Positions 1-13,010 of a stretch of DNA of 13,010 nt are shown one piece after another (within the stretch, counting starts at the first letter, position 1; the number at the start of each line of letters is the position of its first letter). Source of the DNA: a virus; the IMG/VR virus record IMGVR_UViG_3300045988_106465, positions 1 to 13,010 of that record; one strand, 5' to 3'. A program made the translations under genes and the position numbers. The notes beneath the pieces were generated by a model. The model searched no databases. It saw only the letters and a program-made list of their open reading frames with translations, and was not told the DNA's origin.

Positions 1-79
1 CTCGCCTATTGTATTGACTGATAACCATTTAACAAAGTTCCCCCATTGTTTGCTCCATTCCGAACGTTTTCATGCCAGA

Positions 80-109
80 TTGACAGCGTTTTAACAAGAT
101 ATACATAAT
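80..109 (+). promoter_or_regulatory. ITR-internal sigma70/SigA-like promoter, left copy, pointing inward (antisense to the tailspike gene)
   Basis: TTGACA (80-85), an 18-nt spacer, then CATAAT (104-109). The same sequence occurs on the minus strand at the right end. Confidence 0.35.
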
Positions 110-145
110 GCACAATATAAAACCATCTTCCAGGTATATTTTTGG

Positions 146-163
146 TTGTTTTGCACAAAACAA
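146..163. promoter_or_regulatory. Palindrome TTGTTTTG-CA-CAAAACAA inside the ITR (candidate operator)
   Basis: Two 8-bp perfect inverted arms are separated by 2 bp. It lies downstream of the ITR promoter, and a copy is present in the right ITR. Confidence 0.3.
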
Positions 164-204
164 GAGTTATGGATGAAAAGCTCCTAGATAGATTATACCT
201 TTCG

Positions 205-1641: not shown

Positions 1642-2346
1642 TTAATATACTCCGATACAGAATGTGTCGATAAACTCATTTGTTATAAGCTTATAAATAT
1701 CATACTGCCGAAGTTTAAGCTCTGCTTCAACCATCTGTTGATTTGTAGTTACGCCGATATTGCCATGAGTATGTATAACAGTATGCCGTGTGTCGCCGCC
1801 CGTGAATCCTTTATTGCGATTGTCGCCGCCCGTGTATCCTTTATTGCGATTATCGCCGCCCGTGTAGCTGCGTGAATCGTCGCTATGATCTTCGCTTCCG
1901 CTGCTATCGGTAAGCTGTAAATCGCTGCTATTGTATCCCGTCCGGCTGTTTTGTATGCTGCCGCTGCTGTTGCTGTTTCCGCTGTCCGTTAGATTGCGGT
2001 TATAATCGTCGCTTTCTTTAAGGTCGCGTGTGTAATCGTCGCTTTCTTTAAGGTCGCGCGTGTAGTCTTCGAGATGATCTTCGTATCTGTCTGTATTTTC
2101 AATTGGGTTATACTCTGCATCGAGTGCCGCAATCATGCGGTTCCATGCCGCAAGCCGTGTCTTGCTCCAATTACCGATCAGTCTGCCCAGTATATCAGCA
2201 TTCGGGAACAGCAATTCCAGCTCCGCCGCCTCCATGATGATATTATCAATCAATGTTTCTCTGTCAACGCTCGTCGGAATAGTGAGCGAGTCAAAAATTG
2301 CTGGCTGATAGTTATACAGCCCCAGAATTGATAGAGTCGCTTCCAC
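1642..2346 (-). CDS. Lower collar / head-tail adaptor protein (phi29 gp11-like)
   Basis: 234 aa with a GTG start 7 nt after GGAGGTG. It lies directly downstream of the portal gene. The middle is S/N/D-rich, and the C-terminal motif GNIGVTTNQQMVEAELKLRQYDIYKLITNEFIDTFCIGVY is one I recognise from Picovirinae lower collar proteins. That recognition is from memory and needs HHpred. Confidence 0.65.
   Translation of the reverse strand: MEATLSILGLYNYQPAIFDSLTIPTSVDRETLIDNIIMEAAELELLFPNADILGRLIGNWSKTRLAAWNRMIAALDAEYNPIENTDRYEDHLEDYTRDLKESDDYTRDLKESDDYNRNLTDSGNSNSSGSIQNSRTGYNSSDLQLTDSSGSEDHSDDSRSYTGGDNRNKGYTGGDNRNKGFTGGDTRHTVIHTHGNIGVTTNQQMVEAELKLRQYDIYKLITNEFIDTFCIGVY
1791..1868. repeat. 30-nt tandem repeat (about 2.6 copies) inside the lower collar gene
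   Basis: Units at 1791-1820 and 1821-1850 differ at one base, and a partial third unit runs to 1868. They encode YTGGDNRNKG / YTGGDNRNKG / FTGGDTRH. Confidence 0.9.
2003..2062. repeat. Second 30-nt tandem repeat (2 copies plus degenerate flanks) inside the lower collar gene
   Basis: Units at 2003-2032 and 2033-2062 differ at one base. They encode DYTRDLKESD twice, followed in the protein by the degenerate DYNRNL. Confidence 0.9.
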
Positions 2347-3226
2347 CGTCTGTCACCTCCACCGCAAAATCAACGCCCAGCAAACCGCGAATGTCAGGGT
2401 ACATCTTCTCACTCTGCGCCATCCCGGCGCGAATCTCGTCAAGCCACATGCGCGCTTTGCTCCGCGTGAACATGTCGCCCCTTGCAATTTCTCCCGTGAT
2501 AAGCCGCTCTTTTTTCTCGGTCTGAACATTTGGGATGCCGATCTCAGCGCGGAAAGCAGCTTGGATTTTTTGCAGCACGTCCAGAACGTCGCCTGCAATA
2601 AAATTTTGCCCGACATTTTGCGTCAGCAGATGCAGCCCGTCGCCCGCTTTGCTGCCCGTGCGCTGGACAACTGCCGGAATACCGCTTGCAATGTTGTCAT
2701 AGAGTTTTTTAATCGTCTCCGCTTGAGCTTTACTGTCTGCTTCGCCGATGTATGACAGATGTGAGTTGAGAATATTCACGGCTGCACACTGCCAGCATAG
2801 AGTCATTAGATCTCCGTATGTGTCCACAATCCCCGCCACGCCCGAATAATCCGGCTGCATTTTGATGAGCGCGCAATCTCGACCGATGGTCAGCGGCCCA
2901 TGCTGCCGGATAAGCGGATTTGCAACGCTTGCTTTGTTGGGTCTGTAAAACACATTTTGACCACCAAGCGAGCAGGACATCGGGATAACGCCGAATCGGT
3001 CAGTGTTTATAACCGCCACAAAACCCACGCCGAGCAGGTTATAGCGGAAAAAATCAGCATCCCACCATTCAGGCAGTGTAAATTTAAACACCGACAAAGC
3101 ATCCTGCAAAAGATAGCGTTTAAAAAATCTCGCAAGCCCGGTATCATGCACATGCAGAAACGAAGGGTGAATCATGCCGTCAACGCTATTAAGCGTGTCG
3201 TAGAAAAAAGGTGGAGTGAATGCCAA
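2312..3226 (-). CDS. Portal / upper collar connector protein (phi29 gp10-like)
   Basis: 304 aa, against 309 aa for phi29 gp10. The motif GIPNVQTEKKERLITGEI matches phi29 gp10 GIKNANLEKKERMVTDEV. The start is TTG, immediately after the upstream stop, with AGGGGG about 9 nt upstream. Confidence 0.85.
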   Translation of the reverse strand: MAFTPPFFYDTLNSVDGMIHPSFLHVHDTGLARFFKRYLLQDALSVFKFTLPEWWDADFFRYNLLGVGFVAVINTDRFGVIPMSCSLGGQNVFYRPNKASVANPLIRQHGPLTIGRDCALIKMQPDYSGVAGIVDTYGDLMTLCWQCAAVNILNSHLSYIGEADSKAQAETIKKLYDNIASGIPAVVQRTGSKAGDGLHLLTQNVGQNFIAGDVLDVLQKIQAAFRAEIGIPNVQTEKKERLITGEIARGDMFTRSKARMWLDEIRAGMAQSEKMYPDIRGLLGVDFAVEVTDGGSDSINSGAV

Positions 3227-3847: not shown

Positions 3848-5291
3848 AGTAAAAGCCCCCGCGCAAAAAAGATATAATTGCATCGTGCTCTTCAGCCGTC
3901 GCCACGACGTGCAACTCCGGGTTTTGACACATGATAAACCCGGATAGGCTCTTGATATTACGCACAGCGCACAATGGCCTTCCAGCTCGTGTGTTGTCAT
4001 TGTCCACCAAGATTGAAAAATCCGCTCTCAAAATAGGTGGTAGCTGATAGGCCGCAATGCTGCCGGACGCTGACAGTGTTTGTACCGTAGGCGTGCTCGT
4101 CGGAACAACCTCATTGATAGCAGCTTGCGCGAAACCGCTTGCAATATTGCCGTAGTTAGACCAGCTTCGCACGCCTGCTTTAACCGCGCCTATAATGCCC
4201 TGTCCCGCTGCCGTGGCAGGTGGAGGCGCCAGAAGCCCGGTAACACCGCTTGCAATACTGTCAAACATGCCCATTGTAACCTGTGATAGCTGGATATCAA
4301 CCCCCACCGATGCAGCAGTTCGCAGAATTTCGCTTGAACCTGCCGAGAAAGTCGAAATGCCGTTACCTGATACACAATCAACCAATGTTGATACAGTGAG
4401 CGCTTTAGCGTCGCCGCGAACGAAAAAATCCGGTGCGATTGCTACATCCCCCCACGGCCCATAGTTATAGGTGAGGCGTGTATAAGGGCTGCCGTTGAGA
4501 TAGCCCCCGCGCGTCGCTGCCTGTGGGTGCTGCGGAACATCCAGCGTCCAAGTGTCTGTGAAAATCGGCGTTTTTGCAAGGCGCTTGCAGTTGACAGGGA
4601 GGGTCCACCATCCTACTTTAATGGACGCTTGCACGTCTCCCTCTGTCGGCGCAACAAAGGGGAACCATTTACAGCTTACAATATATTGAAACGGGTTAAA
4701 CAGTGTTTTGGCAAGCTCGCTTGAAATCTCGCTTGATGGGATCTGCAAATAATCCGTGTTGATAAATAGTGCATCTCTGAGCGCTGCCATGTATGACTGT
4801 GTCAATACATAATAACTCGTTCCGCCACGAGCATTGTCGTCGCCGTTGATAACACCGATCACATAAGTGCCATCAATCAGGTTTGAGGTCCACGGAAAAC
4901 TAGCAACCGTCCGGTCCATTGTAATTCCGGCTTTGACGCTGTAAAATCCATCGGGCACAAATTCATCGTATTCAGACGCCGAGCGCAATACATATTGTGT
5001 TGAATTCCCAATCTCCGTGCGCCAGCTTGCCAGCACGTCAACCGCGCAGTCAGCTATCCACAATCCATCTTGCCACGTCCACGATGCAAAATAGTACCGC
5101 GCCCAAATCGGAATGTGAATATAATTGATCTGTGCTGGTGTCCAGCCGTCCACCATGTGAAAAACAAGAGACGGCGAAAGAATGCTGCAAACGTCTTTGA
5201 GTTCACAGGCATAAGTCACGCCGTTTGCTGGCTTTGGTATGGCTGTGCTGTCTGCCTCTTTTGCAAACGAATACAGGATTACATCAATCAT
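3840..5291 (-). CDS. Tail knob / distal tail tube protein (phi29 gp9-like)
   Basis: 483 aa with RBS AAGGAGA. The C-terminus is GRPLCAVRNIKSLSGFIMCQNPELHVVATAEEHDAIISFLRGGFYYE. It parallels the phi29 gp9 C-terminus GYKINRVKK...[34 protein letters not shown]. A Gly/Ala-rich hydrophobic loop region precedes it, as in gp9. The gene sits right after the MCP, as in phi29. Confidence 0.8.
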   Translation of the reverse strand: MIDVILYSFAKEADSTAIPKPANGVTYACELKDVCSILSPSLVFHMVDGWTPAQINYIHIPIWARYYFASWTWQDGLWIADCAVDVLASWRTEIGNSTQYVLRSASEYDEFVPDGFYSVKAGITMDRTVASFPWTSNLIDGTYVIGVINGDDNARGGTSYYVLTQSYMAALRDALFINTDYLQIPSSEISSELAKTLFNPFQYIVSCKWFPFVAPTEGDVQASIKVGWWTLPVNCKRLAKTPIFTDTWTLDVPQHPQAATRGGYLNGSPYTRLTYNYGPWGDVAIAPDFFVRGDAKALTVSTLVDCVSGNGISTFSAGSSEILRTAASVGVDIQLSQVTMGMFDSIASGVTGLLAPPPATAAGQGIIGAVKAGVRSWSNYGNIASGFAQAAINEVVPTSTPTVQTLSASGSIAAYQLPPILRADFSILVDNDNTRAGRPLCAVRNIKSLSGFIMCQNPELHVVATAEEHDAIISFLRGGFYYE

Positions 5292-5309: not shown

Positions 5310-6497
5310 TTAGTCGAGCAGGAACACAACGCCGTTTTCGGTCGTGTCGTTCCACCACCGATTGATAAAATGGTGGAATGCGTTGTAATAACGCGATTTT
5401 GCGTTAATGGGGGTCATCGTCATCCCCTCATTGATCATGTCATAGCCCATCGCGTCGCGGTCATAGAGCACAGCAAGGATATTGCTCTGCTGTACAGCCT
5501 TGCCCTTTTCATGCGCGCCCGTGCTGGTGATCTGTGCAGGTGTGATGTTGATTTTATCCGGCGCGTTGATGTTCTGCCAGAACAACACCGTTTCATGCGG
5601 AATCACATCAACAAAATTGGTGTGCCACGTGTCAGGCAAAACGATACCGCCCATCTCGCGCATAAAGTCGCTCAGGATGAGCGCTCTCTGCATGCTCTTC
5701 GGCGTATGCCGGATGATGGTCGCGCCGTCAATGCTCTTATGATAGAGCGTCGTGCGCTCCTGCATCCGATCGCTTGCTTTCACAAGTTCCACGCAAAGCC
5801 AAAGGACGAAGGGTTTGAAATTCTCCGGCTTGTAGATATCTTGCGCAGTCAGCGTCAAGCCCGTGAGCGTGTTGTATTCCGCGAGCATGTGGCGCACATT
5901 TGCGGCGTCCGTGTTAATCTTCGCGCCAATCATATTGGCGATGGTTCCGCGCGCCAGATTCTCCCGCTGCTGCTCCACCTCGTCGAGCACAAACTGCCGC
6001 TGCATCGCGAGGAACTGAGAGAGTTCATCCGGCCCGCGGAATGCTGCCTTGAGCTGGTATTCAAAAACTGTCGGTTCCTGCACTGCCCACTGAACAGCGC
6101 TTGTAAAATTGAGCTGCAACGCCTTCGGGCGCTTTACGGTCCACTGGTCGGCGCTGGTGCCGTCGGCAGGTGCGCTCGTATATTCCGGGTTGTCTTGCGC
6201 GCTGTCAATACCGAGCGGCGTGATTTTGCGAGTTTGAAAGCCCCAATCAAGGCTGTTACCCTCAAGGATTTTGAAGCGGCCAGTGTATGGCCGATTGACA
6301 AAAATCGAACGGTTAATAACCGTTGAAATGCTGGTCATGATGGGGTCAGTGCCCACAGACAGGCCACTTTCGGCCATTGCGACAAACTGCGACATATCGC
6401 GCGGCGCTGCGCTGATATCAGCCGTTCGGCCCTGCGCGTCTGCCACGATCTGGTTCAGGATCGTGGCAATTTGTGCGAATGTGTAACCAGTTGCCAT
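5310..6497 (-). CDS. Major capsid protein (phi29 gp8-like HK97 fold, no Ig-like C-terminal domain)
   Basis: 395 aa with RBS GGAGGTG 8 nt upstream. The C-terminal block LAVLYDRDAMGYDMINEGMTMTPINAKSRYYNAFHHFINRWW parallels phi29 gp8 [36 protein letters not shown]. It follows the scaffold-position gene with a 1-nt TAATG overlap. Confidence 0.88.
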   Translation of the reverse strand: MATGYTFAQIATILNQIVADAQGRTADISAAPRDMSQFVAMAESGLSVGTDPIMTSISTVINRSIFVNRPYTGRFKILEGNSLDWGFQTRKITPLGIDSAQDNPEYTSAPADGTSADQWTVKRPKALQLNFTSAVQWAVQEPTVFEYQLKAAFRGPDELSQFLAMQRQFVLDEVEQQRENLARGTIANMIGAKINTDAANVRHMLAEYNTLTGLTLTAQDIYKPENFKPFVLWLCVELVKASDRMQERTTLYHKSIDGATIIRHTPKSMQRALILSDFMREMGGIVLPDTWHTNFVDVIPHETVLFWQNINAPDKINITPAQITSTGAHEKGKAVQQSNILAVLYDRDAMGYDMINEGMTMTPINAKSRYYNAFHHFINRWWNDTTENGVVFLLD

Positions 6498-6865
6498 TAC
6501 GATTTCACCTCCATAGCGTAATCATTGGCGGCGAGAATTTCAGCCGCGTCTACTGACTGCGGCGCGCCGCCCATGTTATTGATGTTGTTTGCGCGGAACA
6601 TGCCGAGCATTTCACGCAAAAGCTGCACCGTCTCGCTTTCCTGCTGCGGCTGCTGCGGTCCCGGCTGCTGTACCTGCTGCGGCTGCGGTTCCGGCTGCGG
6701 CTGCTGCGGTCCCGGCTGCTGTACCTGCTGCGGCTGCGGTTCCGGCTGCGGCTGCGGTTCCGGTCCCGGCTGCTGTACCTGCTGCGGCTGCGGCTGCATC
6801 ATGGCAAGAATTTCTTCTCGGCTCCATCCTGCTCGATGTAGATCGAGCACATCTTGCATCGTCAT
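6497..6865 (-). CDS. Putative scaffolding protein with an internal Pro/Gln-rich tandem repeat
   Basis: 122 aa with RBS AAGGAGG. It lies immediately upstream of, and translationally coupled to, the MCP, which is the phi29 gp7 position. Helical-looking N- and C-terminal segments flank QQVQQPGP(E/Q)(P/Q)PQPEPQP repeats. No homology was recognised. Confidence 0.55.
   Translation of the reverse strand: MTMQDVLDLHRAGWSREEILAMMQPQPQQVQQPGPEPQPQPEPQPQQVQQPGPQQPQPEPQPQQVQQPGPQQPQQESETVQLLREMLGMFRANNINNMGGAPQSVDAAEILAANDYAMEVKS
6641..6796. repeat. Coding tandem repeat, 51-54-nt unit, about 3 copies (GC-rich CTGCGG/CTGCTG array)
   Basis: Units at 6648-6698 and 6699-6749 are identical. A third, rearranged copy has the core GGTCCCGGCTGCTGTACCTGCTGCGGCTGCGG at 6762-6793. 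Confidence 0.9.
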
Positions 6866-6999: not shown

Positions 7000-7485
7000 T
7001 TACACCCCCCGTCTGATAACTTCCACCATTCGCTCAAGCAAATCTGCGATTTCAAGCCGCGCATCTGCGCCGTCTCCGTTGCTCTCTTCGCCGTAGTCCA
7101 CATCAATACATTTTGCATGATGTGTCCATCCGCTGATGGCCCCCATCTGCACGCCGCCCGTTGTACTGTGGATTACTTCGCCGTTGCCGCAATAGATGCC
7201 CACATGGTAGGCGTTGCCCATCTCATCATGATAGCCGCGCGGAATTTCACCGCCGTCACGCGAGACCTTGAACACCCATTCACCAGGCTGAATCGTGCTC
7301 ATATCGTCCGAGCGATCATAGACAGCATCGCGCCACATCTGATTACTTCCCCGCCAATTTTTGGAGAGCGCATTGCAGTCTTTGAGCACCTGTTCAACAA
7401 ACGCCTGACAATCAAGCTGCTCATAAGGCGTACCCAGATAGCCGCCAGTGAGAGCACGATCTACATAAGCATCAGCTTTCACCAT
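7000..7485 (-). CDS. NlpC/P60-family cell wall peptidase (endolysin)
   Basis: 161 aa counted from the ATG at 7485. The catalytic Cys context is LDCQAFVEQV and the His context is YHVGIYCGNGEVIHST, both typical of NlpC/P60. It follows the holin directly. No separate cell-wall-binding domain is evident. Confidence 0.8.
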   Translation of the reverse strand: MVKADAYVDRALTGGYLGTPYEQLDCQAFVEQVLKDCNALSKNWRGSNQMWRDAVYDRSDDMSTIQPGEWVFKVSRDGGEIPRGYHDEMGNAYHVGIYCGNGEVIHSTTGGVQMGAISGWTHHAKCIDVDYGEESNGDGADARLEIADLLERMVEVIRRGV

Positions 7486-7675
7486 CGCCAATTCTGAGCA
7501 CCTCCAAGATTCGGCTGAGCGCTTGCGTGTTGTTGTTAAGCGCATCGGTCATTTTGCTGACTTCTTCCTTGTGTGCATCGTCGCTGAGCCGTCGATCATA
7601 GAGCAGATAGCAGCAGATTGCAATGGGGAACCCCATTTGCTGAACAAACTGGACAAAAGTCTGCCAAAATTCCAT
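7472..7675 (-). CDS. Holin, BhlA/UviB-like (single N-terminal TM plus charged coiled C-terminus)
   Basis: 67 aa counted from the ATG at 7675, with GGAGGTG 5 nt upstream. The sequence is MEFWQTFVQFVQQMGFPIAICCYLLYDRRLSDDAHKEEVSKMTDALNNNTQALSRILEVL. It has one hydrophobic segment followed by a polar helix, and it lies upstream of the endolysin. The 112-aa track ORF extension covers the promoter/hairpin region and is not credited. Confidence 0.7.
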   Translation of the reverse strand: MEFWQTFVQFVQQMGFPIAICCYLLYDRRLSDDAHKEEVSKMTDALNNNTQALSRILEVLRIGDGES

Positions 7676-7687
7676 GGTAACACCTCC

Positions 7688-7775
7688 ATAATAAAAATCA
7701 GTCAACCATTTTTGTGCGGATGCCTCGCGCGCCCCGCCCCTTCTGGGGGCTGCATGTGGGAAATGGTTGACTGTT
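7688..7775 (-). ncRNA. Candidate about 85-nt structured small RNA / attenuator (promoter-proximal terminal helix, GC-rich core, U tract)
   Basis: A 13-bp perfect inverted repeat is formed by 7761-7773 and 7699-7711 (CAGUCAACCAUUU ... AAAUGGUUGACUG on the minus-strand RNA). It encloses 49 nt containing a GCCCC-CAGAA-GGGGC hairpin, an AUGC/GCAU helix and an unpaired GCGCGC. The 3' arm is followed by AUUUUUAUUAU. The predicted +1 of the upstream promoter falls 1-2 nt before the 5' arm. Confidence 0.45.
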
Positions 7776-7781
7776 GATATC

Positions 7782-7810
7782 ATTATATTCTGTTGTTGGA
7801 AAATTTGCAA
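7782..7810 (-). promoter_or_regulatory. Near-consensus SigA/sigma70 promoter (late/lysis operon and/or small RNA)
   Basis: On the minus strand: TTGCAA (7810-7805), a 17-nt spacer, then TATAAT (7787-7782). It begins 15 nt downstream of the ATPase stop codon. Confidence 0.65.
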
Positions 7811-7824
7811 TATATATTATAGTA

Positions 7825-8871
7825 TCATATCATGCCCAAATAACCACGGAAAATAAGCTCTGTATCGTAACTATCAAACGTCAAATAGTTTTCAAAATAT
7901 AGCGTTTTCATTAGCCCATAACGCTTGCGCCATTGCTCAAGGCCAAACCCCTGCGGGTCATATGCGCGCGTTTTCTGCGCGGCCCGGCAAATATAAAATT
8001 CCCGGCGCGATTTGTGGCGATACATGCCTATTGTACCAATCGTGCAAAGATAGTCAAACTCGATCAATGGCCGAGATGCAACCCTCGTCGGGTCCACATA
8101 AAACGCGTTGTTTATGGCCATTTCAATAAAATCCTGCGGCGCGTTTTTGTATAGCCCGGTCTGCATTTTCCGTCGGCTTATTGGACTATCTTGCAATATA
8201 ATCATTGCCCGGCTCCCGTCAGGCGTGCGAAAGATCATCTGTTTACCGCGAATCATTTTAATGGCCGTGCTCATAAAATCCCAACCAATATAATAGGGAT
8301 TAGCTAGCTGATTAGCATTGCCCAACAACAACGCTTTCACAGGTGCAAGGCCCTGCAATTCGCGGTTGCGGTTTACCGTTTCATAAAAATCCAAAAATGC
8401 CGTGAACTCGTTTGCAAGCGTCCGCTCCGTCGTCAGCGGAATATACTCATCAAAAACGATGGTATCAAACCCAGAAAAATCCATACCGCGAACATTTGCC
8501 AATGCTGACAAACTTGTACCCACGCCGAGTAGACAGCCATCCGGCGCGATTTTCCCACGCTTATTCTGTGCGGCCTCGTAAAACGCGACCATATCAGCGG
8601 ACAGGGAAAACGCCTGCACATTCCAGCCCATATCCTTGTTGAGTCGTGCGAAGGGGTTGCCCACAGGTGTTCGCGCTTTCAAGATCTGCGTGCCCCAGCG
8701 GCGCAACCACACAAATTTTCCGCCGCCATTGCGTGCAGTTTCAACCGCACGCTTTGCGACTCCATACGTTTTACCCGTGCCGCGCGACGACGTGACAGTC
8801 ACAAAATTAGACGCGCTATCCCAAATATAATCAATATTTGGATATCCATTATCAAGATACAACTTTCCCAT
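7825..8871 (-). CDS. DNA encapsidation (packaging) ATPase, phi29 gp16-like
   Basis: 348 aa counted from the ATG at 8871, with GGAGGG 8 nt upstream. Walker A is SSRGTGKTYG, against phi29 GARGIGKSY. FVWLRRW matches FIYVRRY. Walker B is DTIVFDEYIP, against STIVFDEFI. VNRNRELQG...LGNANQLANPYY matches VFRNRERVR...LSNAVSVVNPYF. Confidence 0.9.
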   Translation of the reverse strand: MGKLYLDNGYPNIDYIWDSASNFVTVTSSRGTGKTYGVAKRAVETARNGGGKFVWLRRWGTQILKARTPVGNPFARLNKDMGWNVQAFSLSADMVAFYEAAQNKRGKIAPDGCLLGVGTSLSALANVRGMDFSGFDTIVFDEYIPLTTERTLANEFTAFLDFYETVNRNRELQGLAPVKALLLGNANQLANPYYIGWDFMSTAIKMIRGKQMIFRTPDGSRAMIILQDSPISRRKMQTGLYKNAPQDFIEMAINNAFYVDPTRVASRPLIEFDYLCTIGTIGMYRHKSRREFYICRAAQKTRAYDPQGFGLEQWRKRYGLMKTLYFENYLTFDSYDTELIFRGYLGMI

Positions 8872-11032
8872 TTTGTTTAGCCCTCCAACTCCCAAACAGG
8901 TTGATTTTTGTAAGCAGCCTCTCATAATCCTCAGAATGTGACATTGTATAACTATTCGGTATCAACGCCACATTACGGGTAATGTGTAGATCGCGCCCAT
9001 CCACTTTAATCCAAAAATCCGCGCTGTCATTGTAAACTGATATGCTGCCAGCCGCCAGCGTCCAGACCATACCGCCATCCCGCACTCGTCGGCCTTTTTC
9101 ATCCCTTTTATAACGCCCGGCTGCATCTTGCGCATATCGTCCGGGTTTAAATGCGGACAACCCGCCAGCCTCTTTAAGCTCAAGCGCGCCCAGCGTCAAG
9201 CCTGCTGATTTGACTTTTTTCGTGCTAACACCTGAGACAGTCACACCAAGTTTACCTTCACGTTCATACGCATATCGTTTCGCCCCCTGCGTGATAAATC
9301 GGTCATAGCCATCCTCCTTGTCAAAAACGCCCATATAATACACCTTGCCATTACGATCATGTGCGAATGCTCCACAGCGTTTCGCGCGATCAACCAAGCG
9401 TGCATTCAGATGAGACAAATCAATAGGCGCATCTGTTTTAACGCTGTCTGTGTCATTATAGACAATGTTGTCTCCCGCGATCTGTATTGCCTCATGCAGC
9501 GCATAGCGCGCCCAAGCAGTCGTGTATACTCCCCACTGATAGGGGAAATATGCTTTTTCAAGCGCCTGCCGTTTTTCCTCGTCTGTTTTATGCACTGCTT
9601 GATAGTCGCCGTCAATAAATTGTATTGACTCGCGTATCGGGTCTTGCGCACTCATGCCATAGATACCATTCAATTTGTTCTTTGATTTCATATACTGATA
9701 TTGGCGCTCGTCCGCTTCATCTTCTGTTTCGCCGTCAGGGCCGTTTTTCAGCATTGTCTTATCCTGATAATATTTATCGATTACATCAAGATACTGTTTG
9801 GGCAGTGGCCCCTTGCGCGCAATCATTGCTTCTTCACATGCGATTTTATCCGCGGAATATTGGCGCATGACAATCGCCAGGTCGATTTCAGTTAAAGCGG
9901 TTGTGCAAAGATCTGCTGACAGCAAGCGGCCATTGTCAACCACAAAAGCGCTGCTTTGCGTTTTTGACAGCGACAAATAGGGCACTGGTTCCCGCTCATT
10001 GCGCAAGCGCAAGCCGGAAAACACATAACGCCCGACAACCGCGCGCCCATGCCGAATATAATCAATAATATTCGCCATTTGTAAATCTTCACCGCTGAGC
10101 CAGCGAAAGGGGGTTATCGGAAAATTTCTCGTTCGCTGCTGGGCCGGATATGCCGACGTTTCATCATATGATTCGACATTTTCAAGGATTTTGCCAACTT
10201 TATAGCGATTCGCATGCGTATCGCCGCCGCGAAACGCCGCTCGAAGCAGCGCATATTCCCGTTGATAGGGGAGAATTGATTCGATCTTCCATCTAATCGG
10301 CCACAGCGCCGCTTTAGCGTCTCGCCTGACATACCCAGTAGACGTGAGGGGCAACGTGTGGAGTGTATCTCCATCGCGTTTCATTTCCGTCTTGATCGCC
10401 TCCACAAGGCCCAATACATCGTTAATACAGTATTGCGTCTCATAGTCGGTCAAATCAGACCAAGGATAGCGCACAATATCATAATCAAAAGAGTCGCCGT
10501 CAAGCTTGCGATGCTCGCATTTCATAATTTCCGTAAATTTTGAAAGACTCATATTGCTATGCATGTAGCTGCATCGAAATTCAATACAGCCCAGCATGCG
10601 CGCATATATCGGCTTCCGAGCCTCGCGCAGAAACACTTCTTCCGGCTGGAATGGATAAAGCCCTGCCAGAAATTGGAATTCATACGCCAGATTGTGAACA
10701 AACATTACAAGATAAGGTTTTGTGTCAAGATTGTTCGATTCCTGTAAAGCCGCGCACATTTCATCAACGCGAGCAAGAAACGTGAAAAACTCATCCCAAT
10801 AGCGGCCCATGATAACATCTGAGTTTATTGCAACCTGCCACACATACATAAAAGCATGCGGCTCATCCTCGCCGTTCTCCATGCGATGTACAACCGACGT
10901 TTCGATATCAAAAGCCGCCACCACGTTGACATATTCCACTCGCTGACTTTTTGCACGCTTTCCGCGTTTTCGCGCTGCTATGCCGCTCTCATAGATACGC
11001 TCAAATGGGTAAGTCTCTGCCGTGTATATCAA
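8852..11032 (-). CDS. Protein-primed family-B DNA polymerase
   Basis: 726 aa. Exo I is FDIETS, Exo II is HNLAYEFQF and Exo III is YCINDVLGL. Motif A is SYDETSAYPAQ (phi29 DVNSLYPAQ). Motif B is KNKLNGIYGMSAQ. Motif C is VYNDTDSVK. The KxY motif is GAKRYAY. The start is TTG, overlapping the upstream stop as TTGA; the next in-frame Met lies after Exo I, so the TTG start is required. Confidence 0.92.
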   Translation of the reverse strand: MIYTAETYPFERIYESGIAARKRGKRAKSQRVEYVNVVAAFDIETSVVHRMENGEDEPHAFMYVWQVAINSDVIMGRYWDEFFTFLARVDEMCAALQESNNLDTKPYLVMFVHNLAYEFQFLAGLYPFQPEEVFLREARKPIYARMLGCIEFRCSYMHSNMSLSKFTEIMKCEHRKLDGDSFDYDIVRYPWSDLTDYETQYCINDVLGLVEAIKTEMKRDGDTLHTLPLTSTGYVRRDAKAALWPIRWKIESILPYQREYALLRAAFRGGDTHANRYKVGKILENVESYDETSAYPAQQRTRNFPITPFRWLSGEDLQMANIIDYIRHGRAVVGRYVFSGLRLRNEREPVPYLSLSKTQSSAFVVDNGRLLSADLCTTALTEIDLAIVMRQYSADKIACEEAMIARKGPLPKQYLDVIDKYYQDKTMLKNGPDGETEDEADERQYQYMKSKNKLNGIYGMSAQDPIRESIQFIDGDYQAVHKTDEEKRQALEKAYFPYQWGVYTTAWARYALHEAIQIAGDNIVYNDTDSVKTDAPIDLSHLNARLVDRAKRCGAFAHDRNGKVYYMGVFDKEDGYDRFITQGAKRYAYEREGKLGVTVSGVSTKKVKSAGLTLGALELKEAGGLSAFKPGRYAQDAAGRYKRDEKGRRVRDGGMVWTLAAGSISVYNDSADFWIKVDGRDLHITRNVALIPNSYTMSHSEDYERLLTKINLFGSWRAKQNGKVVS

Positions 11033-11721
11033 CGCCGAGCCTCGTTATCAAAAAATTCCATAGCCGCATCATAGAGCGGCCCCAGCTCGCCTTCTGTTGA
11101 CGGCTCATTGTCAAGAGCGGATAAGGCTGCTTCGATTTCCTGCTCGCGATCTGCAAGGTAATCTTGCATATCTGCAAGGACATCTTTCACAGATGCACCC
11201 TCGCGCATCTGGTCGGCCATGCGTCGCACTTCATCGCGGAATTTGTAGATGCTATAATCCTGTTTTGCGCTATCCAAAAAATGGATATAGTCCATCCAAT
11301 CCCGGACATTTGTGGGATTGATAGCGCTCTGCATATCAGACGGCAACCAATCGCGCACACCATCAACAAAGTTTTTGGTTTTCTCATCGCGCCAAAAAGA
11401 TTTGGCGGCTTTTCTGCGCAGTTCACGCTCTTTTGCGCGCCTTGTAAGTTCTCGGACACGATTATTATAATCCCTGATATACGTGTCTCGCTGCCTCTGT
11501 CTTTCCAGTTCACGCGCGCCAGACACTGTTGTGTCCTTACGCGCCGCCAAACGTTTCAGACGTGCAAGCGAGTTCCTGAGGTCTCGCGCGGTTTTAATAT
11601 CAGCCAAGCGCTCCCCCGCGTCCAGGGGATTGAATCCAGCAGACACAAGACGTCTGCTGCGATCTTGTAATAACTTTCTGAGACGGCGATATTCTGCGCG
11701 GGTTTTTTCACTGCCAACCAT
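11029..11721 (-). CDS. Putative terminal protein (replication primer protein)
   Basis: 230 aa with RBS AAGGAGG. It lies immediately upstream of, and overlaps, the polymerase, which is the phi29 gene 3 / gene 2 arrangement. The N-terminal two thirds are strongly basic and coiled-coil-like. The C-terminal third is acidic (DVLADMQDYLADREQEIEAALSALDNEPSTEGELGPLYDAAMEFFDNE). No sequence homology was recognised, so the call rests on synteny and composition. Confidence 0.5.
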   Translation of the reverse strand: MVGSEKTRAEYRRLRKLLQDRSRRLVSAGFNPLDAGERLADIKTARDLRNSLARLKRLAARKDTTVSGARELERQRQRDTYIRDYNNRVRELTRRAKERELRRKAAKSFWRDEKTKNFVDGVRDWLPSDMQSAINPTNVRDWMDYIHFLDSAKQDYSIYKFRDEVRRMADQMREGASVKDVLADMQDYLADREQEIEAALSALDNEPSTEGELGPLYDAAMEFFDNEARR

Positions 11722-11768: not shown

Positions 11769-12125
11769 TCAACGTTTGCGTCTGTGTTGTGATGTGGGCT
11801 GCGTATCAGACGGCGAGCGCGACATAAAATCAAACGTTTCCACATTGACTTCATGCGTATTCACACGGCAACCATCACTATCAGTAAAGGTATAAAGCCG
11901 AATTGAACCGCACAGCGCAAGCTTGTCTCCTTTATGGCAATACTTACCAATCAGTTCAGCCGCGCCACCCCATGCCGTGCAGTGAAAAAAATCAGCCTGG
12001 TCATCTTTTTGCCGACCTGGCACGGCAATCGTGAATTTTGCCAGTGTGCGAGTTTCGTCTTTAACGTTCACTTCGCGGATTTCAGGATCAGCCATAAAAC
12101 GACCTACGATATAAAGCTTATTCAT
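11769..12125 (-). CDS. ssb: Single-stranded DNA-binding protein (OB-fold SSB)
   Basis: 118 aa. MNKLYIVGRFMADPEIREV...LAKFTIAV...DFFHCTAWGGAAELIGKYCHKGDKLALCGSIRLYTF matches the bacterial/phage SSB pattern (MNxVxLxGRLxxDPExR...FxLAV...FxxCxxWxxxAExxxxYxxKGxxVxVxGxL). The RBS is GGAGGTAGAAC, and the start overlaps the RHH stop (ATGAATAA). Confidence 0.85.
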   Translation of the reverse strand: MNKLYIVGRFMADPEIREVNVKDETRTLAKFTIAVPGRQKDDQADFFHCTAWGGAAELIGKYCHKGDKLALCGSIRLYTFTDSDGCRVNTHEVNVETFDFMSRSPSDTQPTSQHRRKR

Positions 12126-12827: not shown

Positions 12828-12847
12828 TAGCTTTTCATCCATAACTC

Positions 12848-12865
12848 TTGTTTTGTGCAAAACAA
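12848..12865. promoter_or_regulatory. Right-ITR copy of the TTGTTTTG-N2-CAAAACAA palindrome (candidate operator between the two early promoters)
   Basis: This is the mirror copy of 146-163. It lies between the ITR promoter and the unique early promoter. Confidence 0.3.
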
Positions 12866-12901
12866 CCAAAAATATACCTGGAAGATGGTTTTATATTGTG
12901 C

Positions 12902-12931
12902 ATTATGTATATCTTGTTAAAACGCTGTCAA
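12902..12931 (-). promoter_or_regulatory. ITR-internal promoter, right copy, co-directional with all genes
   Basis: On the minus strand: TTGACA, an 18-nt spacer, then CATAAT. This is the mirror of 80-109. Confidence 0.4.
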
Positions 12932-13010
12932 TCTGGCATGAAAACGTTCGGAATGGAGCAAACAATGGGGGAACTTTGTTAAATGGTTATCAGTCAATAC
13001 AATAGGCGAG

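What the first reader, a model, noticed from the sequence alone, without database searches (positions are those of the whole stretch)
7688..7810. Self-contained promoter-to-terminator structured RNA next to the packaging ATPase: pRNA-like candidate or late/lysis attenuator
A near-consensus promoter starts 15 nt after the ATPase stop (TTGCAA, 17 nt, TATAAT). Its predicted +1 lies at the base of a 13-bp perfect terminal helix (arms 7773-7761 and 7711-7699). That helix closes a 49-nt GC-rich core containing a GCCCC/GGGGC hairpin, an AUGC/GCAU helix and an unpaired palindromic GCGCGC. The 3' arm runs into AUUUUUAUUAU, and the holin RBS follows. This is the layout of a discrete RNA of about 85 nt. 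In phi29-family motors the gp16 ATPase docks on a packaging RNA whose paired 5'/3' ends form the A-helix, and pRNAs are so far known only from Bacillus phi29 relatives. Alternatively, the element is an intrinsic terminator or attenuator. In that role it would end early transcription and gate read-through from a strong promoter into the holin, endolysin and structural genes.
Basis: partly seen in the sequence, partly recalled or inferred. Interest (0 to 1): 0.8.

Follow-up and report, generated by a model that had tools for sequence, protein, structure and literature searches.

The report
Miniature pRNA-like RNA in gut phage
Between the packaging-ATPase gene and the late genes of this complete 13-kb phi29-like gut phage lies a small, conserved folded RNA with the same architecture as the 'prohead RNA' that Bacillus phage phi29 needs to package its DNA, an RNA so far reported only from Bacillus-type phages.

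Summary
On the minus strand, a near-consensus promoter (7810-7782) starts transcription 1-2 nt before a perfect 13-bp helix (7773-7761 / 7711-7699). That helix closes a 49-nt core and is followed by AUUUUUAUUAU and the holin ribosome-binding site.

The element belongs to a large RNA family that has no Rfam match. I found it in about 115 related phage loci by covariance model, and in more by eye. These include the cultured Amedibacillus phage AD70P3.

Covariation supports four helices plus a bulge-to-loop pairing: 90% of cells paired against 52% in shuffles.

The topology matches phi29 pRNA element for element: terminal helix, three-way junction, an arm with a 5' bulge and a conserved apical loop, and a second hairpin whose loop is complementary to the bulge. 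It is only 75-90 nt long.

About half the family ends in a terminator-like U-tract. In two lineages a tRNA gene directly follows, which implies release as a free RNA.

Best reading, at about 0.5: a miniature packaging (prohead) RNA made from the late promoter. Four things count against it:
- The portal lacks the basic N-terminus.
- P1 length varies from 6 to 20 bp.
- The RNA always lies 5' of the late operon.
- Some lineages carry an unexplained 'anti-P2' spacer.

The function is untested.

The parts
7805..7810 (-). -35 hexamer TTGCAA of the RNA/late promoter
   Evidence: An equivalent near-consensus promoter ends 3-9 nt before P1 in more than 50 divergent relatives.
7782..7787 (-). -10 hexamer TATAAT, 17-nt spacer
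7774..7775 (-). Predicted transcription start (A7775 or A7774), 1-2 nt before P1
   Evidence: Inferred from the position of the -10 element. The spacing is conserved across the family. Not measured.
7761..7773 (-). P1 5' arm, CAGUCAACCAUUU (equivalent of the pRNA A helix)
   Evidence: pair I18. There is a compensatory C-G to U-A change in L006. All 12 modelled P1 pairs covary.
7758..7760 (-). P2a 5' strand, CCC (equivalent of the C helix)
   Evidence: Pairs with 7733-7735. The P2a pairs are 96-98% paired and all four covary.
7751..7757 (-). 5'-side bulge ACAUGCA. AUGC (7755-7752) pairs with the P3 loop (equivalent of the pRNA right-hand CE bulge)
   Evidence: Core pairs of the pseudoknot covary: CG27/GC17/AU9/UA6, GC48/AU5/CG3, and CG38/UA13/GC5/AU4.
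7736..7750 (-). P2 hairpin GCCCC-CAGAA-GGGGC with the conserved pentaloop C-N-G-A-A (equivalent of the E stem-loop)
   Evidence: L005 carries one compensatory change and two G-U changes. The helix is 97-99% paired. Loop G39 and A41 are invariant; loop C37 and A40 and the closing G43 are at least 90% conserved (A3 columns).
7733..7735 (-). P2a 3' strand, GGG
7716..7730 (-). P3 hairpin GCG-CGAGGCAUC-CGC. GCAU (7723-7720) in the loop pairs with the bulge (equivalent of the D stem-loop, or left-hand loop)
   Evidence: P3 is 90-96% paired and all four pairs covary.
7712..7715 (-). A-rich junction J3/1, ACAA
   Evidence: one A in this junction is invariant across 60 sequences.
7699..7711 (-). P1 3' arm, AAAUGGUUGACUG
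7688..7698 (-). U-rich tract AUUUUUAUUAU directly after P1 (terminator-like)
   Evidence: Of 62 distinct family members, 31 have at least 5 U in 8 nt at this position. Termination itself has not been measured.
7472..7687 (-). GGAGG ribosome-binding site (7687-7683) and the holin-like first late gene (ATG at 7675)
   Evidence: PHROG 4898, annotated holin, and a weak YvrJ match. The distance from P1 to the start codon is 18-39 nt in most relatives.
7825..8925 (-). gp16-type DNA-encapsidation ATPase, upstream neighbour (homologues start at M19)
   Evidence: Pfam PF05894, E = 2.4e-12. There are 2019 homologues.
2312..3226 (-). gp10-type portal/connector, without a basic N-terminus
   Evidence: BLASTP against phi29 gp10: 22% identity, E = 1e-5. 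There are no K or R residues in the first 30 residues, against 8 in phi29.

Best explanation
The element is the gene for a discrete structured RNA of about 80-86 nt. It belongs to a large family with no Rfam match, carried by gut and rumen phi29-like phages.

Shown:
- The fold has a terminal helix P1, formed by the 5' and 3' ends, and a three-way junction.
- One arm runs P2a, then a 7-nt 5' bulge, then hairpin P2 with a conserved C-N-G-A-A loop.
- The second arm is hairpin P3, whose loop is Watson-Crick complementary to the bulge.
- Transcription is predicted to start at the base of P1 from a strong sigma-A-type promoter, which also appears to serve the late operon.
- In this phage P1 is followed by a U-tract.

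Inferred:
- The RNA is released as a free molecule. In this phage that would happen by leaky intrinsic termination, with read-through transcripts supplying the mRNA for holin, lysin and structural genes.
- It then works like a miniature phi29 prohead RNA. The conserved P2 loop would contact the prohead, and P1 would project as the docking site for the gp16-type ATPase.
For: Structure:
- Covariation: 90.5% of cells are paired against 52.2% in shuffles (0 of 500 shuffles reach it) and 33-40% in slid registers. The covariation score is 0.926 against 0.200. The bulge-loop core pairs show 4-5 pair types each (an independent MAFFT alignment gives the same).
- G-U pairs, and covariance-model (CM) scores of 65.9 bits on the minus strand against 10.1 on the plus strand, place the RNA on the gene strand.

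Resemblance to pRNA:
- The element order is the same as the Rfam pRNA structure of phi29: A, C, a 5' bulge carrying the pairing bases at its 3' end, a 4-bp E hairpin, C', the D hairpin, A'.
- The two criteria used in the field to authenticate new pRNAs are met (PMC12670572). These are covarying right- and left-hand loops on a three-way-junction fold, and gp10 plus gp16 homologues in the same genome.
- The window is a complete genome with 182-nt terminal inverted repeats. It holds one copy of this RNA and no canonical pRNA.

Design as a discrete RNA:
- The promoter ends 3-9 nt before P1 in more than 50 divergent loci.
- A terminator-like U-tract follows in 31 of 62 members.
- In L134 and L090 a tRNA gene (Ile and Gln respectively) starts 2-4 nt after P1. 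RNase P would therefore cut the RNA free. tRNA genes are otherwise rare: 3 credible ones in 122 loci.

A larger relative:
- Clostridium perfringens phage phiCPV4 (Guelinviridae) has a roughly 115-nt RNA of canonical pRNA size at the same position. It has a bulged A helix, a GCCA bulge complementary to a UGGC loop, and a UGGAA E loop. Its helices show compensatory changes in CPS2 and phiZP2.

Distribution:
- The family follows the gp16 ATPase clade: 79 of 86 sources searched with the model (IMG/VR loci, the window, ENA contigs and GenBank records), 34 of 63 MAG loci by covariance model, and more by eye.
Against: - There is no match to RF00044.
- Portals of this clade lack the N-terminal basic motif (MARKR in phi29, MSRRK in Athos, MSKRK in phiCPV4), which from memory of the phi29 literature binds pRNA.
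- P1 ranges from 6 bp in AD70P3 to 20 bp and has no conserved bulge, unlike the pRNA A helix that docks gp16.
- P2a and P3 together are only 8-10 bp, against 15 bp for C plus D in phi29. A pentameric ring would therefore be tight around a gp10-size portal (my estimate).
- The RNA is always the first element of the late transcription unit, even where the ATPase lies 8 kb away on the other strand (L094).
- 21 of 62 members have no U-tract or exact anti-P2 match after P1, and ARAGORN found no adjacent tRNA in the CM-positive loci it scanned.
- At least five lineages carry a spacer complementary to the P2 5' strand plus loop, which looks like a cis-acting alternative pairing.
- Sequence alone cannot tell whether the bulge-loop pairing is intermolecular or intramolecular. 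The similar lengths of P2a and P3 would also suit an intramolecular pseudoknot.
Confidence: 0.5

Rival explanations
1. It is a cis-acting leader or attenuator of the late operon. The bulge-P3 pairing is an intramolecular pseudoknot that makes a compact fold in the 5' UTR. P1 plus the U-tract terminates most transcripts. A phage or host factor that recognises the conserved P2 loop, or in other lineages an alternative pairing of P2 with the spacer, sets how much holin, lysin and structural mRNA is made or translated.
For: - The RNA is always directly upstream of the first late gene, 18-39 nt from the start codon. This also holds in the rearranged genome L094.
- The window has a U-tract after P1.
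- An anti-P2 spacer element occurs in at least five lineages, with a compensatory change in L054. 13 of 49 sequences reach p<=0.05 where about 2.5 are expected.
- P2a and P3 are of similar length, as side-by-side docking would need.
- The late promoter is near-consensus, so some control after initiation would be useful (inference).
Against: - The window group and the L012-L037 group show no expression platform, and their spacer complementarity is at chance level.
- P1 is 10-20 bp, perfect, and of freely varying sequence. It cannot be switched by a conserved alternative pairing.
- The conserved core lies inside the terminator stem. Binding it should stabilise termination, not relieve it.
- The U-tract is missing in half the members.
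- In L090 and L134 a tRNA gene sits between the RNA and the late genes, so processing would sever the RNA from the mRNA.
- No riboswitch or leader family in Rfam matches.
Confidence: 0.2
2. It is a trans-acting stable phage RNA with a function other than packaging. Examples would be a regulatory sRNA whose P2 loop pairs with UUCNG-type targets, or a decoy against a host defence or a host RNA-binding protein.
For: - The design is that of a discrete RNA: promoter at the base of P1, then a terminator or a tRNA at the 3' end.
- The invariant apical loop points to recognition by another macromolecule.
- Spacers in some lineages are complementary to that loop, which shows it can be used for RNA-RNA pairing.
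- The portal lacks the pRNA-binding motif.
Against: - No target or partner has been identified.
- The window has no UUCUG near the late ribosome-binding site.
- This reading gives no reason for the element-by-element match to pRNA, or for the covarying bulge-loop pair, in a phage with a gp16-type motor.
Confidence: 0.15
3. It is a co-transcriptional or protective leader. One version is a put/EAR-like RNA that makes RNA polymerase resistant to termination across the 7.4-kb late operon. The other is a 5' structure, stabiliser or xrRNA-like, that shields the late mRNA from RNase J-type 5'-to-3' decay.
For: - It lies immediately after the promoter at the head of a long operon.
- It needs no expression platform.
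- A three-way junction combined with a loop-to-3'-tail pairing, as in the anti-P2 lineages, recalls the architecture of xrRNAs (the comparison is from memory).
- After the ATPase gene, the L012-L037 group has a second promoter followed by a plain hairpin at +1. This suggests that 5' hairpins are used as stabilisers in these phages.
Against: - No convincing internal terminators need to be overcome in the window.
- A simple hairpin is enough for 5' protection, and the same phages use one elsewhere.
- Where a tRNA follows, processing removes the structure from the mRNA.
- A U-tract after P1 would work against antitermination.
- No Rfam match.
Confidence: 0.1
4. It is just the intrinsic terminator of the early (SSB-TP-Pol-ATPase) operon, with a chance promoter-like sequence in front, and the RNA has no function of its own.
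For: - A 13-bp stem followed by a U-tract lies right after the last early gene.
- Promoter-like hexamers are over-abundant in the window.
Against: - The 49-nt interior is conserved in structure, with covariation and invariant loop bases, across phages whose ATPases are only 25-50% identical.
- The promoter is conserved at a fixed distance.
- In L094 the element is not downstream of the early operon at all.
- Half the members have no U-tract.
Confidence: 0.03

Closest known systems
phi29-family prohead/packaging RNA (pRNA; Rfam RF00044)
   Same: - The host genome type is the same: linear, protein-primed, with a gp16 ATPase, a gp10 portal and a Phi29_MCP capsid protein.
- The order of elements is the same: paired 5' and 3' ends, a three-way junction, an arm with a 5'-only bulge followed by a 4-5-bp hairpin with a conserved loop, and a second hairpin whose loop is complementary to the bulge and covaries with it.
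- It has its own strong promoter.
- It lies downstream of the replication genes on the same strand.
   Different: - It is 75-90 nt long, against 120-174 nt.
- It has no sequence or covariance-model similarity.
- P2a is 3-6 bp against 9 bp for the C helix, and P3 is 3-5 bp against 6 bp for the D helix.
- The unpaired junction bases lie between P3 and P1, not between C and D.
- P1 has no bulge and varies in length.
- The portal lacks the basic N-terminus.
- The RNA is fused to the 5' end of the late operon rather than being a separate gene at the genome end.
- Its function is untested.
Unannotated ~115-nt RNA upstream of the late operon in Clostridium perfringens phages phiCPV4, phiZP2, CPS2 and relatives (found here; I found no description of it in the literature searched)
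   Same: - The position is the same: promoter, RNA, then the first late gene.
- The topology is the same.
- The E-type loop is UGGAA against CNGAA, and the D-type loop is UGGC against UGGCGA or UGGCAA in some mini-RNA lineages.
- The cultured carrier of the mini-RNA, AD70P3, is classified in the same family, Guelinviridae.
   Different: - It is of canonical pRNA size, with a long, interrupted A helix and a 10-bp C helix.
- Its portal has the MSKRK N-terminus.
- Model R1 does not detect it.
Lambda pR'-6S RNA-tR' unit with Q antitermination
   Same: A strong late promoter is followed at once by a short terminated transcript, and the late lysis and structural genes lie behind the terminator.
   Different: - Lambda 6S RNA has no conserved complex fold with a function of its own.
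- Read-through there needs the Q protein, which is loaded at the promoter.
- No Q-like gene or binding site is evident here.
HK022 put RNA and Bacillus EAR (cis-acting processive antitermination RNAs)
   Same: A structured RNA transcribed early in a long operon that acts without a visible expression platform.
   Different: - Their folds differ: put is two stem-loops, and EAR is a larger pseudoknotted RNA.
- There is no Rfam hit to EAR.
- A U-tract or a tRNA directly after the element does not fit that role.
Flavivirus exoribonuclease-resistant RNAs (xrRNA)
   Same: A three-way junction combined, in the anti-P2 lineages, with pairing between an apical loop and the single strand just 3' of P1.
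   Different: - The window RNA has no such 3' complement.
- The transcript starts at P1, so there is no upstream RNA to be degraded.
- The internal bulge-loop pairing is different.

Membership tests
phi29-type pRNA (RF00044) | Scores against the Rfam pRNA covariance model | tested here: not met
   There was no hit at E<=10 in the whole window or in 7670-7800 alone. The same model scores 145 bits on phi29.
phi29-type pRNA (RF00044) | The 5' and 3' ends pair in a terminal A helix that closes a three-way junction | tested here: met
   P1 is 13 bp in the window, and all 12 modelled pairs covary. It has no conserved bulge and ranges from 6 to 20 bp.
phi29-type pRNA (RF00044) | A C-E arm with a 5'-side bulge and a conserved apical loop, plus a D hairpin | tested here: met
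   P2a, the bulge, P2 with its CNGAA loop, and P3 are present. The element order is identical to the Rfam structure line for phi29.
phi29-type pRNA (RF00044) | The right-hand bulge and left-hand loop are complementary and covary | tested here: met
   The three core pairs are at least 97% paired, with 4-5 pair types each. The pairing extends to 7-8 bp in L093, L133 and L142.
phi29-type pRNA (RF00044) | That complementarity is used between molecules to form a ring | not testable with these tools
   This needs two-RNA complementation or a solved structure.
phi29-type pRNA (RF00044) | gp16-type ATPase and gp10-type connector encoded in the same genome | tested here: met
   PF05894 at 2.4e-12. The portal matches gp10 at E = 1e-5.
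phi29-type pRNA (RF00044) | Basic (RKR-type) connector N-terminus that binds pRNA | tested here: not met
   K+R counts in the first 30 residues are 0-2 in five portals of the clade (window 0; L089, L093 and L094 1 each; AD70P3 2) and 4 in L090 and L092. They are 8 in phi29, 7 in Athos and 6 in phiCPV4. The role of this motif is recalled from the phi29 literature.
phi29-type pRNA (RF00044) | An independent small transcript with defined ends | tested here: inconclusive
   The promoter at the base of P1 is conserved. A U-tract follows in 31 of 62 members, and a tRNA abuts the RNA in two lineages. However, 21 of 62 have neither a U-tract nor an exact anti-P2 match, and the late genes always follow.
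phi29-type pRNA (RF00044) | Present on proheads and required for DNA packaging | not testable with these tools
   This needs experiments. Cultured systems exist: AD70P3 on Amedibacillus, and phiCPV4 on C. perfringens for the larger RNA.
Intrinsic terminator / attenuator | A G+C-rich stem directly followed by a U-tract | tested here: met
   In the window, a 13-bp stem is followed by AUUUUUAUUAU. Across the family this holds for only 31 of 62 members.
Intrinsic terminator / attenuator | A mutually exclusive antiterminator pairing or a regulated switch | tested here: not met
   The window has no conserved alternative pairing, and its spacer-to-P2 complementarity is at chance level (z = -0.25). 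The P1 sequence varies freely. Other lineages have an anti-P2 element of unknown role.
Riboswitch | A conserved aptamer coupled to an expression platform, and membership of a known class | tested here: not met
   There was no Rfam class match. P1 is too long and stable to depend on a ligand. The ribosome-binding site is not sequestered. Ligand binding itself was not tested.

The most novel reading that the evidence does not exclude
RNA-dependent DNA packaging is not peculiar to Bacillus phages. Most gut and rumen phi29-like phages would encode a true prohead RNA: a 75-90-nt version in the clade of this window, and a version of about 115 nt in Clostridium perfringens Guelinviridae. It would be co-transcribed with the late genes and released by leaky termination or by an adjacent tRNA. 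These would be the smallest natural ring-forming motor RNAs. They would also show how the RNA and the portal co-evolved, since the portal has lost its basic N-terminus.
Probability: 0.45. Interest if true: 0.9.

Novelty: new variant of a known kind. Interest (0 to 1): 0.8.

Why it matters
pRNA is the only known RNA that is an essential part of a viral DNA-packaging motor, and it is a workhorse of RNA nanotechnology. Reviews from 2016 and 2024, and a 2025 survey, still place it only in Bacillus-type phages (PMC5066667, PMC11476376, PMC12670572).

A second, much smaller family with the same architecture, in hundreds of gut and rumen phages, would make several things possible:
- The long-standing question of why phi29 needs an RNA could be tested by comparison: which elements are indispensable, how the ATPase docks on a 6-20-bp helix, and how the ring binds a portal that has no basic tail.
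- It would supply new minimal self-assembling RNA modules.
- It would give a marker for annotating these abundant phages.

If the RNA turns out to be a late-operon leader instead, it is still a new, widespread, pseudoknotted phage RNA class with an unknown partner.

Tried and rejected
Searches that found nothing:
- Rfam on the whole window and on the element alone gave only chance-level hits.
- ARAGORN found no tRNA or tmRNA in the window.
- blastn of the region against GenBank phages found no match.
- An exact-motif search (CAYATGCA, GCACAAA) found only close relatives. I replaced it with a structure-based scan.
- Papers describing a pRNA outside Bacillus-type phages: none found in the held library.

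Families considered by eye and rejected:
- Hammerhead and other self-cleaving ribozymes: the core lacks CUGANGA and GAAA, and there is no Rfam hit.
- A boxB-type GNRA-like pentaloop: the loop starts with C, and covariation fixes a 5-nt loop closed by C-G.
- A tetraloop register for P2: it fails in the L044-type sequences.
- A CsrA GGA loop: the variable N gives AGA or UGA in many members.
- A T-loop or tRNA mimic.

Ideas tested and dropped:
- Anti-P2 spacer sequestering the start codon: plausible in L094 and L064 but not consistent across lineages.
- Reading the 112-aa ORF 7472-7810 as coding: rejected. Homologous holins start at the ATG at 7675, and the upstream part evolves as paired RNA.
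- Enterococcus phage Athos: Rfam pRNA does not hit its candidate RNA, and I could not settle its fold.
Full report
**1. What the window is**

The 13,010-bp window is a complete linear genome. Bases 1-182 and 12829-13010 are perfect inverted terminal repeats.

All genes lie on the minus strand. From high to low coordinates they are:
- an SSB (11769-12125);
- an arginine-rich protein in the place of a terminal protein (11029-11721);
- a protein-primed family-B DNA polymerase (8852-11032);
- a gp16-type encapsidation ATPase (7825-8925; PF05894, 2.4e-12);
- the element;
- a small holin-like gene (ATG at 7675);
- an NlpC/P60 lysin;
- a PQ-repeat protein;
- a Phi29_MCP capsid protein;
- tail and portal genes, including a gp10-type portal (2312-3226).

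It is therefore a small phi29-like podophage. The nearest public sequences are IMG/VR and human-faecal contigs. The nearest cultured relative is Amedibacillus phage AD70P3 (Guelinviridae), whose ATPase is 28% identical. Related contigs are binned with gut and rumen Clostridia MAGs.

**2. The observation**

- TTGCAA, a 17-nt spacer and TATAAT lie at 7810-7782.
- A perfect 13-bp helix (7773-7761 / 7711-7699) encloses 49 nt.
- It is followed by AUUUUUAUUAU, GGAGG and ATG.

The region folds better than all 200 dinucleotide shuffles (-37.1 kcal/mol, z = -2.95).

**3. It is a conserved RNA, not a lone hairpin**

Close relatives (ATPase 97-98% identical) keep the element. One of them (L005) changes the inner hairpin from GCCCC/GGGGC to GCUCU/GGAGU. 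That is one compensatory change and two G-U changes, which only makes sense as RNA on the gene strand.

A relative whose ATPase is 87% identical has a compensatory C-G to U-A change in the outer helix. A relative at 53% has a completely different outer helix around a recognisable core.

A structure-based scan of 80 IMG/VR loci, chosen only for encoding a related ATPase (33-46% identity), then found the same RNA in nearly all of them.

A MAFFT alignment of 60 distinct sequences, and a covariance-model alignment of 79 hits of which 62 are distinct, give the same picture:
- 89-90% of cells are paired, against 52-54% in column shuffles (0 of 500 shuffles reach this) and 33-44% in slid registers.
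- The covariation score is 0.72-0.93, against 0.17-0.20 in shuffles.
- 28-31 of 30-36 pairs show changes on both sides.

The model finds exactly one copy in the window (65.9 bits on the minus strand, 10.1 on the plus strand). With relaxed thresholds or by eye it also finds the RNA in:
- GenBank faecal phages (L089, L090, L092, L093, L094);
- AD70P3;
- 34 of 63 MAG-binned contigs, and most of the model-negative contigs I printed.

Rfam 15 has nothing like it.

**4. Anatomy, in window coordinates**

| Element | Coordinates | Sequence / note |
|---|---|---|
| P1 | 7773-7761 with 7711-7699 | terminal helix |
| P2a | 7760-7758 with 7735-7733 | CCC / GGG |
| Bulge | 7757-7751 | ACAUGCA, on the 5' side |
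| P2 | 7750-7746 with 7740-7736 | loop CAGAA at 7745-7741 |
| Linker | 7732-7731 | two bases |
| P3 | 7730-7728 with 7718-7716 | 9-nt loop |
| J3/1 | 7715-7712 | ACAA |

The bulge bases AUGC (7755-7752) are complementary to GCAU (7723-7720) in the P3 loop.

Across the family this bulge-loop pairing keeps its register and covaries. Examples are AGUCA:UGACU, UGCAC:GUGCA and CGC:GCG, up to AAAAGGAA:UUCCUUUU. Each of the three core pairs is at least 97% paired, with 4-5 pair types.

Of the unpaired bases, loop G39 and A41 and one A in J3/1 are invariant. Loop C37 and A40, an A at the 5' side of the bulge, and a G in the P3 loop are at least 90% conserved (positions are A3 alignment columns).

**5. 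Transcription unit**

In more than 50 divergent loci a 9-12/12 sigma-70-type promoter ends 3-9 nt before the first base of P1. The transcript is therefore predicted to begin at the base of the helix.

This also holds for the L012-L037 group. There an extra gene with its own promoter sits between the ATPase gene and the RNA.

Downstream of P1 the designs differ:
- 31 of 62 distinct RNAs have at least 5 U in 8 nt directly after P1. This includes the window.
- 12 of 62 have an exact stretch of 6 nt or more complementary to the P2 5' strand plus loop. With G-U pairs allowed, more do. At least five independent lineages carry it.
- In two independent lineages a tRNA gene follows within 2-4 nt: tRNA-Ile in L134 and tRNA-Gln in L090.
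- 21 of 62 have neither a U-tract nor an exact anti-P2 match.

tRNA genes are otherwise rare in these phages. ARAGORN found three credible ones in 122 loci, and two of them abut the RNA.

The next gene starts 18-39 nt after P1 in most loci. It is always the first late gene, usually the holin.

In L094 the replication-ATPase block is inverted and lies 8 kb away, yet the RNA still heads the late operon. In L134 the RNA follows the polymerase rather than the ATPase.

**6. Comparison with pRNA**

The Rfam structure line for phi29 pRNA reads as follows:
- A helix, then 1 nt;
- C helix (5+4 bp);
- a 9-nt 5' bulge that carries the pairing bases at its 3' end;
- a 4-bp E hairpin with a conserved loop;
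- the C 3' strand, then UUU;
- the D hairpin, whose loop pairs with the bulge;
- the A 3' strand.

The new RNA has the same elements in the same order, only smaller. Its main junction strand lies after P3 instead of before it.

A 2025 survey accepted new pRNAs on two criteria: a three-way-junction fold with covarying right- and left-hand loops, and gp10 plus gp16 in the same genome (PMC12670572). Both are met here.

That survey, and reviews from 2016 and 2024, know pRNA only from Bacillus-type phages. My searches found no paper reporting it elsewhere.

**7. A possible bridge**

C. perfringens phage phiCPV4 belongs to the same ICTV family as AD70P3. Upstream of its first late gene it has an unannotated promoter followed by an RNA of about 115 nt. 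Its features are:
- a long interrupted terminal helix;
- a 10-bp C-type helix;
- a CGCCA bulge;
- a GGG-(G)UGGAA-CCC hairpin;
- a GGGU-UGGC-ACCC hairpin, with GCCA in the bulge complementary to UGGC in the loop.

It is 90-100% conserved in 17 phage records. CPS2 and phiZP2 carry compensatory changes in two helices. Its size is that of a canonical pRNA, and its position and loop motifs are those of the mini-RNA.

**8. Weighing**

*For a free, pRNA-like RNA:*
- the topology, including the covarying bulge-loop pair;
- the gp16/gp10 context, and the absence of any other candidate RNA in a complete genome;
- the start at the base of the helix;
- the terminator or tRNA at the 3' end;
- the invariant apical loop;
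- the phiCPV4-type intermediate.

*Against:*
- Portals of the clade lack the basic N-terminus found in phi29, Athos and phiCPV4.
- P1 varies from 6 to 20 bp and has no bulge.
- A ring built from helices this short would be tight (my estimate).
- The RNA never leaves the head of the late operon.
- A third of the members show no obvious way of forming a 3' end.
- The anti-P2 element looks like a cis-acting alternative pairing.

A purely cis-acting switch is hard to reconcile with three observations. P1 is long, perfect and free to vary in sequence. The window shows no expression platform. And in two lineages a tRNA separates the RNA from the mRNA.

I therefore put a pRNA-like packaging role at about 0.5. 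The rivals are a cis-acting leader or attenuator at about 0.2, another trans-acting role at about 0.15, a protective or antitermination leader at about 0.1, and a plain terminator at about 0.03.

Sequence alone cannot decide whether the bulge-loop pairing is intermolecular. The phi29 case is the precedent: as I recall it, the same kind of covariation was first read as an intramolecular contact.

**9. Verdict**

- The element is a member of a new, widespread structured-RNA family.
- Its closest known analogue in form and context is pRNA, but it fails several membership tests. I file it as a new variant that works like a pRNA, with its function unproven.
- Cultured systems exist for the decisive experiments.

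Noticed in passing
window 1-182 and 12829-13010: These are perfect 182-nt inverted terminal repeats, so the window is a complete linear protein-primed genome. Each repeat carries a TTGACA-18-CATAAT promoter-like site pointing inward.
   Followed up: partly
L095 (phiCPV4) about 16177-16291, minus strand; also L097 (CPS2) and L098 (phiZP2): An unannotated promoter and a roughly 115-nt RNA lie upstream of the late operon of C. perfringens Guelinviridae. The RNA has a canonical pRNA-like fold, with a GCCA bulge complementary to a UGGC loop and a UGGAA apical loop. It is 90-100% conserved in 17 phage records, with a few compensatory changes.
   Followed up: partly
L096 (Enterococcus phage Athos) 4577-4842: The gap between the early operon (after Pol) and the late promoter holds a promoter, a roughly 120-nt multibranched RNA with a long terminal helix, and a strong terminator. 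The region folds at z = -4.0. It is probably this phage's unannotated pRNA, but Rfam RF00044 does not detect it and I did not resolve its fold.
   Followed up: partly
L096 about 4786-4801; L095 4813-4855 (two copies); also just after the ATPase gene or next to the -35 element in L020, L024, L038, L075 and L133: The palindrome TGTTTCACGTGAAACA recurs near promoters in phi29-like phages of very different hosts. It looks like a shared operator for an unknown DNA-binding regulator.
   Followed up: no
Spacer between P1 and the ribosome-binding site in the L044 clade, L065, L068, L093 and L094 (for example L094 1133-1141): A 6-9-nt element is complementary to the P2 5' strand plus loop bases C-G-G-A, with a compensatory change in L054. 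It is significant against shuffles, it is absent from the window, and its function is unknown.
   Followed up: partly
L134 6000-6073 and L090 8489-8564: tRNA-Ile(UAU) and tRNA-Gln(UUG) genes sit 2-4 nt downstream of the RNA. These are two of only three credible tRNA genes found in 122 related loci.
   Followed up: yes
window 2312-3226 and the portals of L088, L089, L093 and L094: Portals of this clade lack the N-terminal basic motif (M-A/S-R/K-R/K-R/K) that is present in phi29, Athos and phiCPV4.
   Followed up: partly
L012-L037, about 450 nt between the ATPase gene and the RNA: This subgroup has an extra gene (protein starting MELT...) with its own promoter. A small hairpin sits exactly at +1, suggesting that 5'-terminal hairpins serve as mRNA stabilisers in these phages.
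   Followed up: no
L007 4170-4300: In this relative (ATPase 53% identical) the RNA has no U-tract. It is followed by a second promoter (ATGACA-17-TATAAT) and a separate GC hairpin with U8, just before the holin ribosome-binding site.
   Followed up: no
window 6497-6865: A 122-aa protein is built largely from PQ(P/Q)E-type repeats (DNA tandem repeats at 6629-6812). It sits in the position of a scaffold or head-morphogenesis protein, and its N-terminus resembles the first late protein of L090.
   Followed up: no
window 7472-7810 and 8871-8925: Two mechanical ORF calls are too long. The 112-aa ORF that spans the RNA is an in-frame artefact upstream of the holin ATG at 7675. The ATPase probably starts at M19, because its homologues are 348 aa long.
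   Followed up: partly
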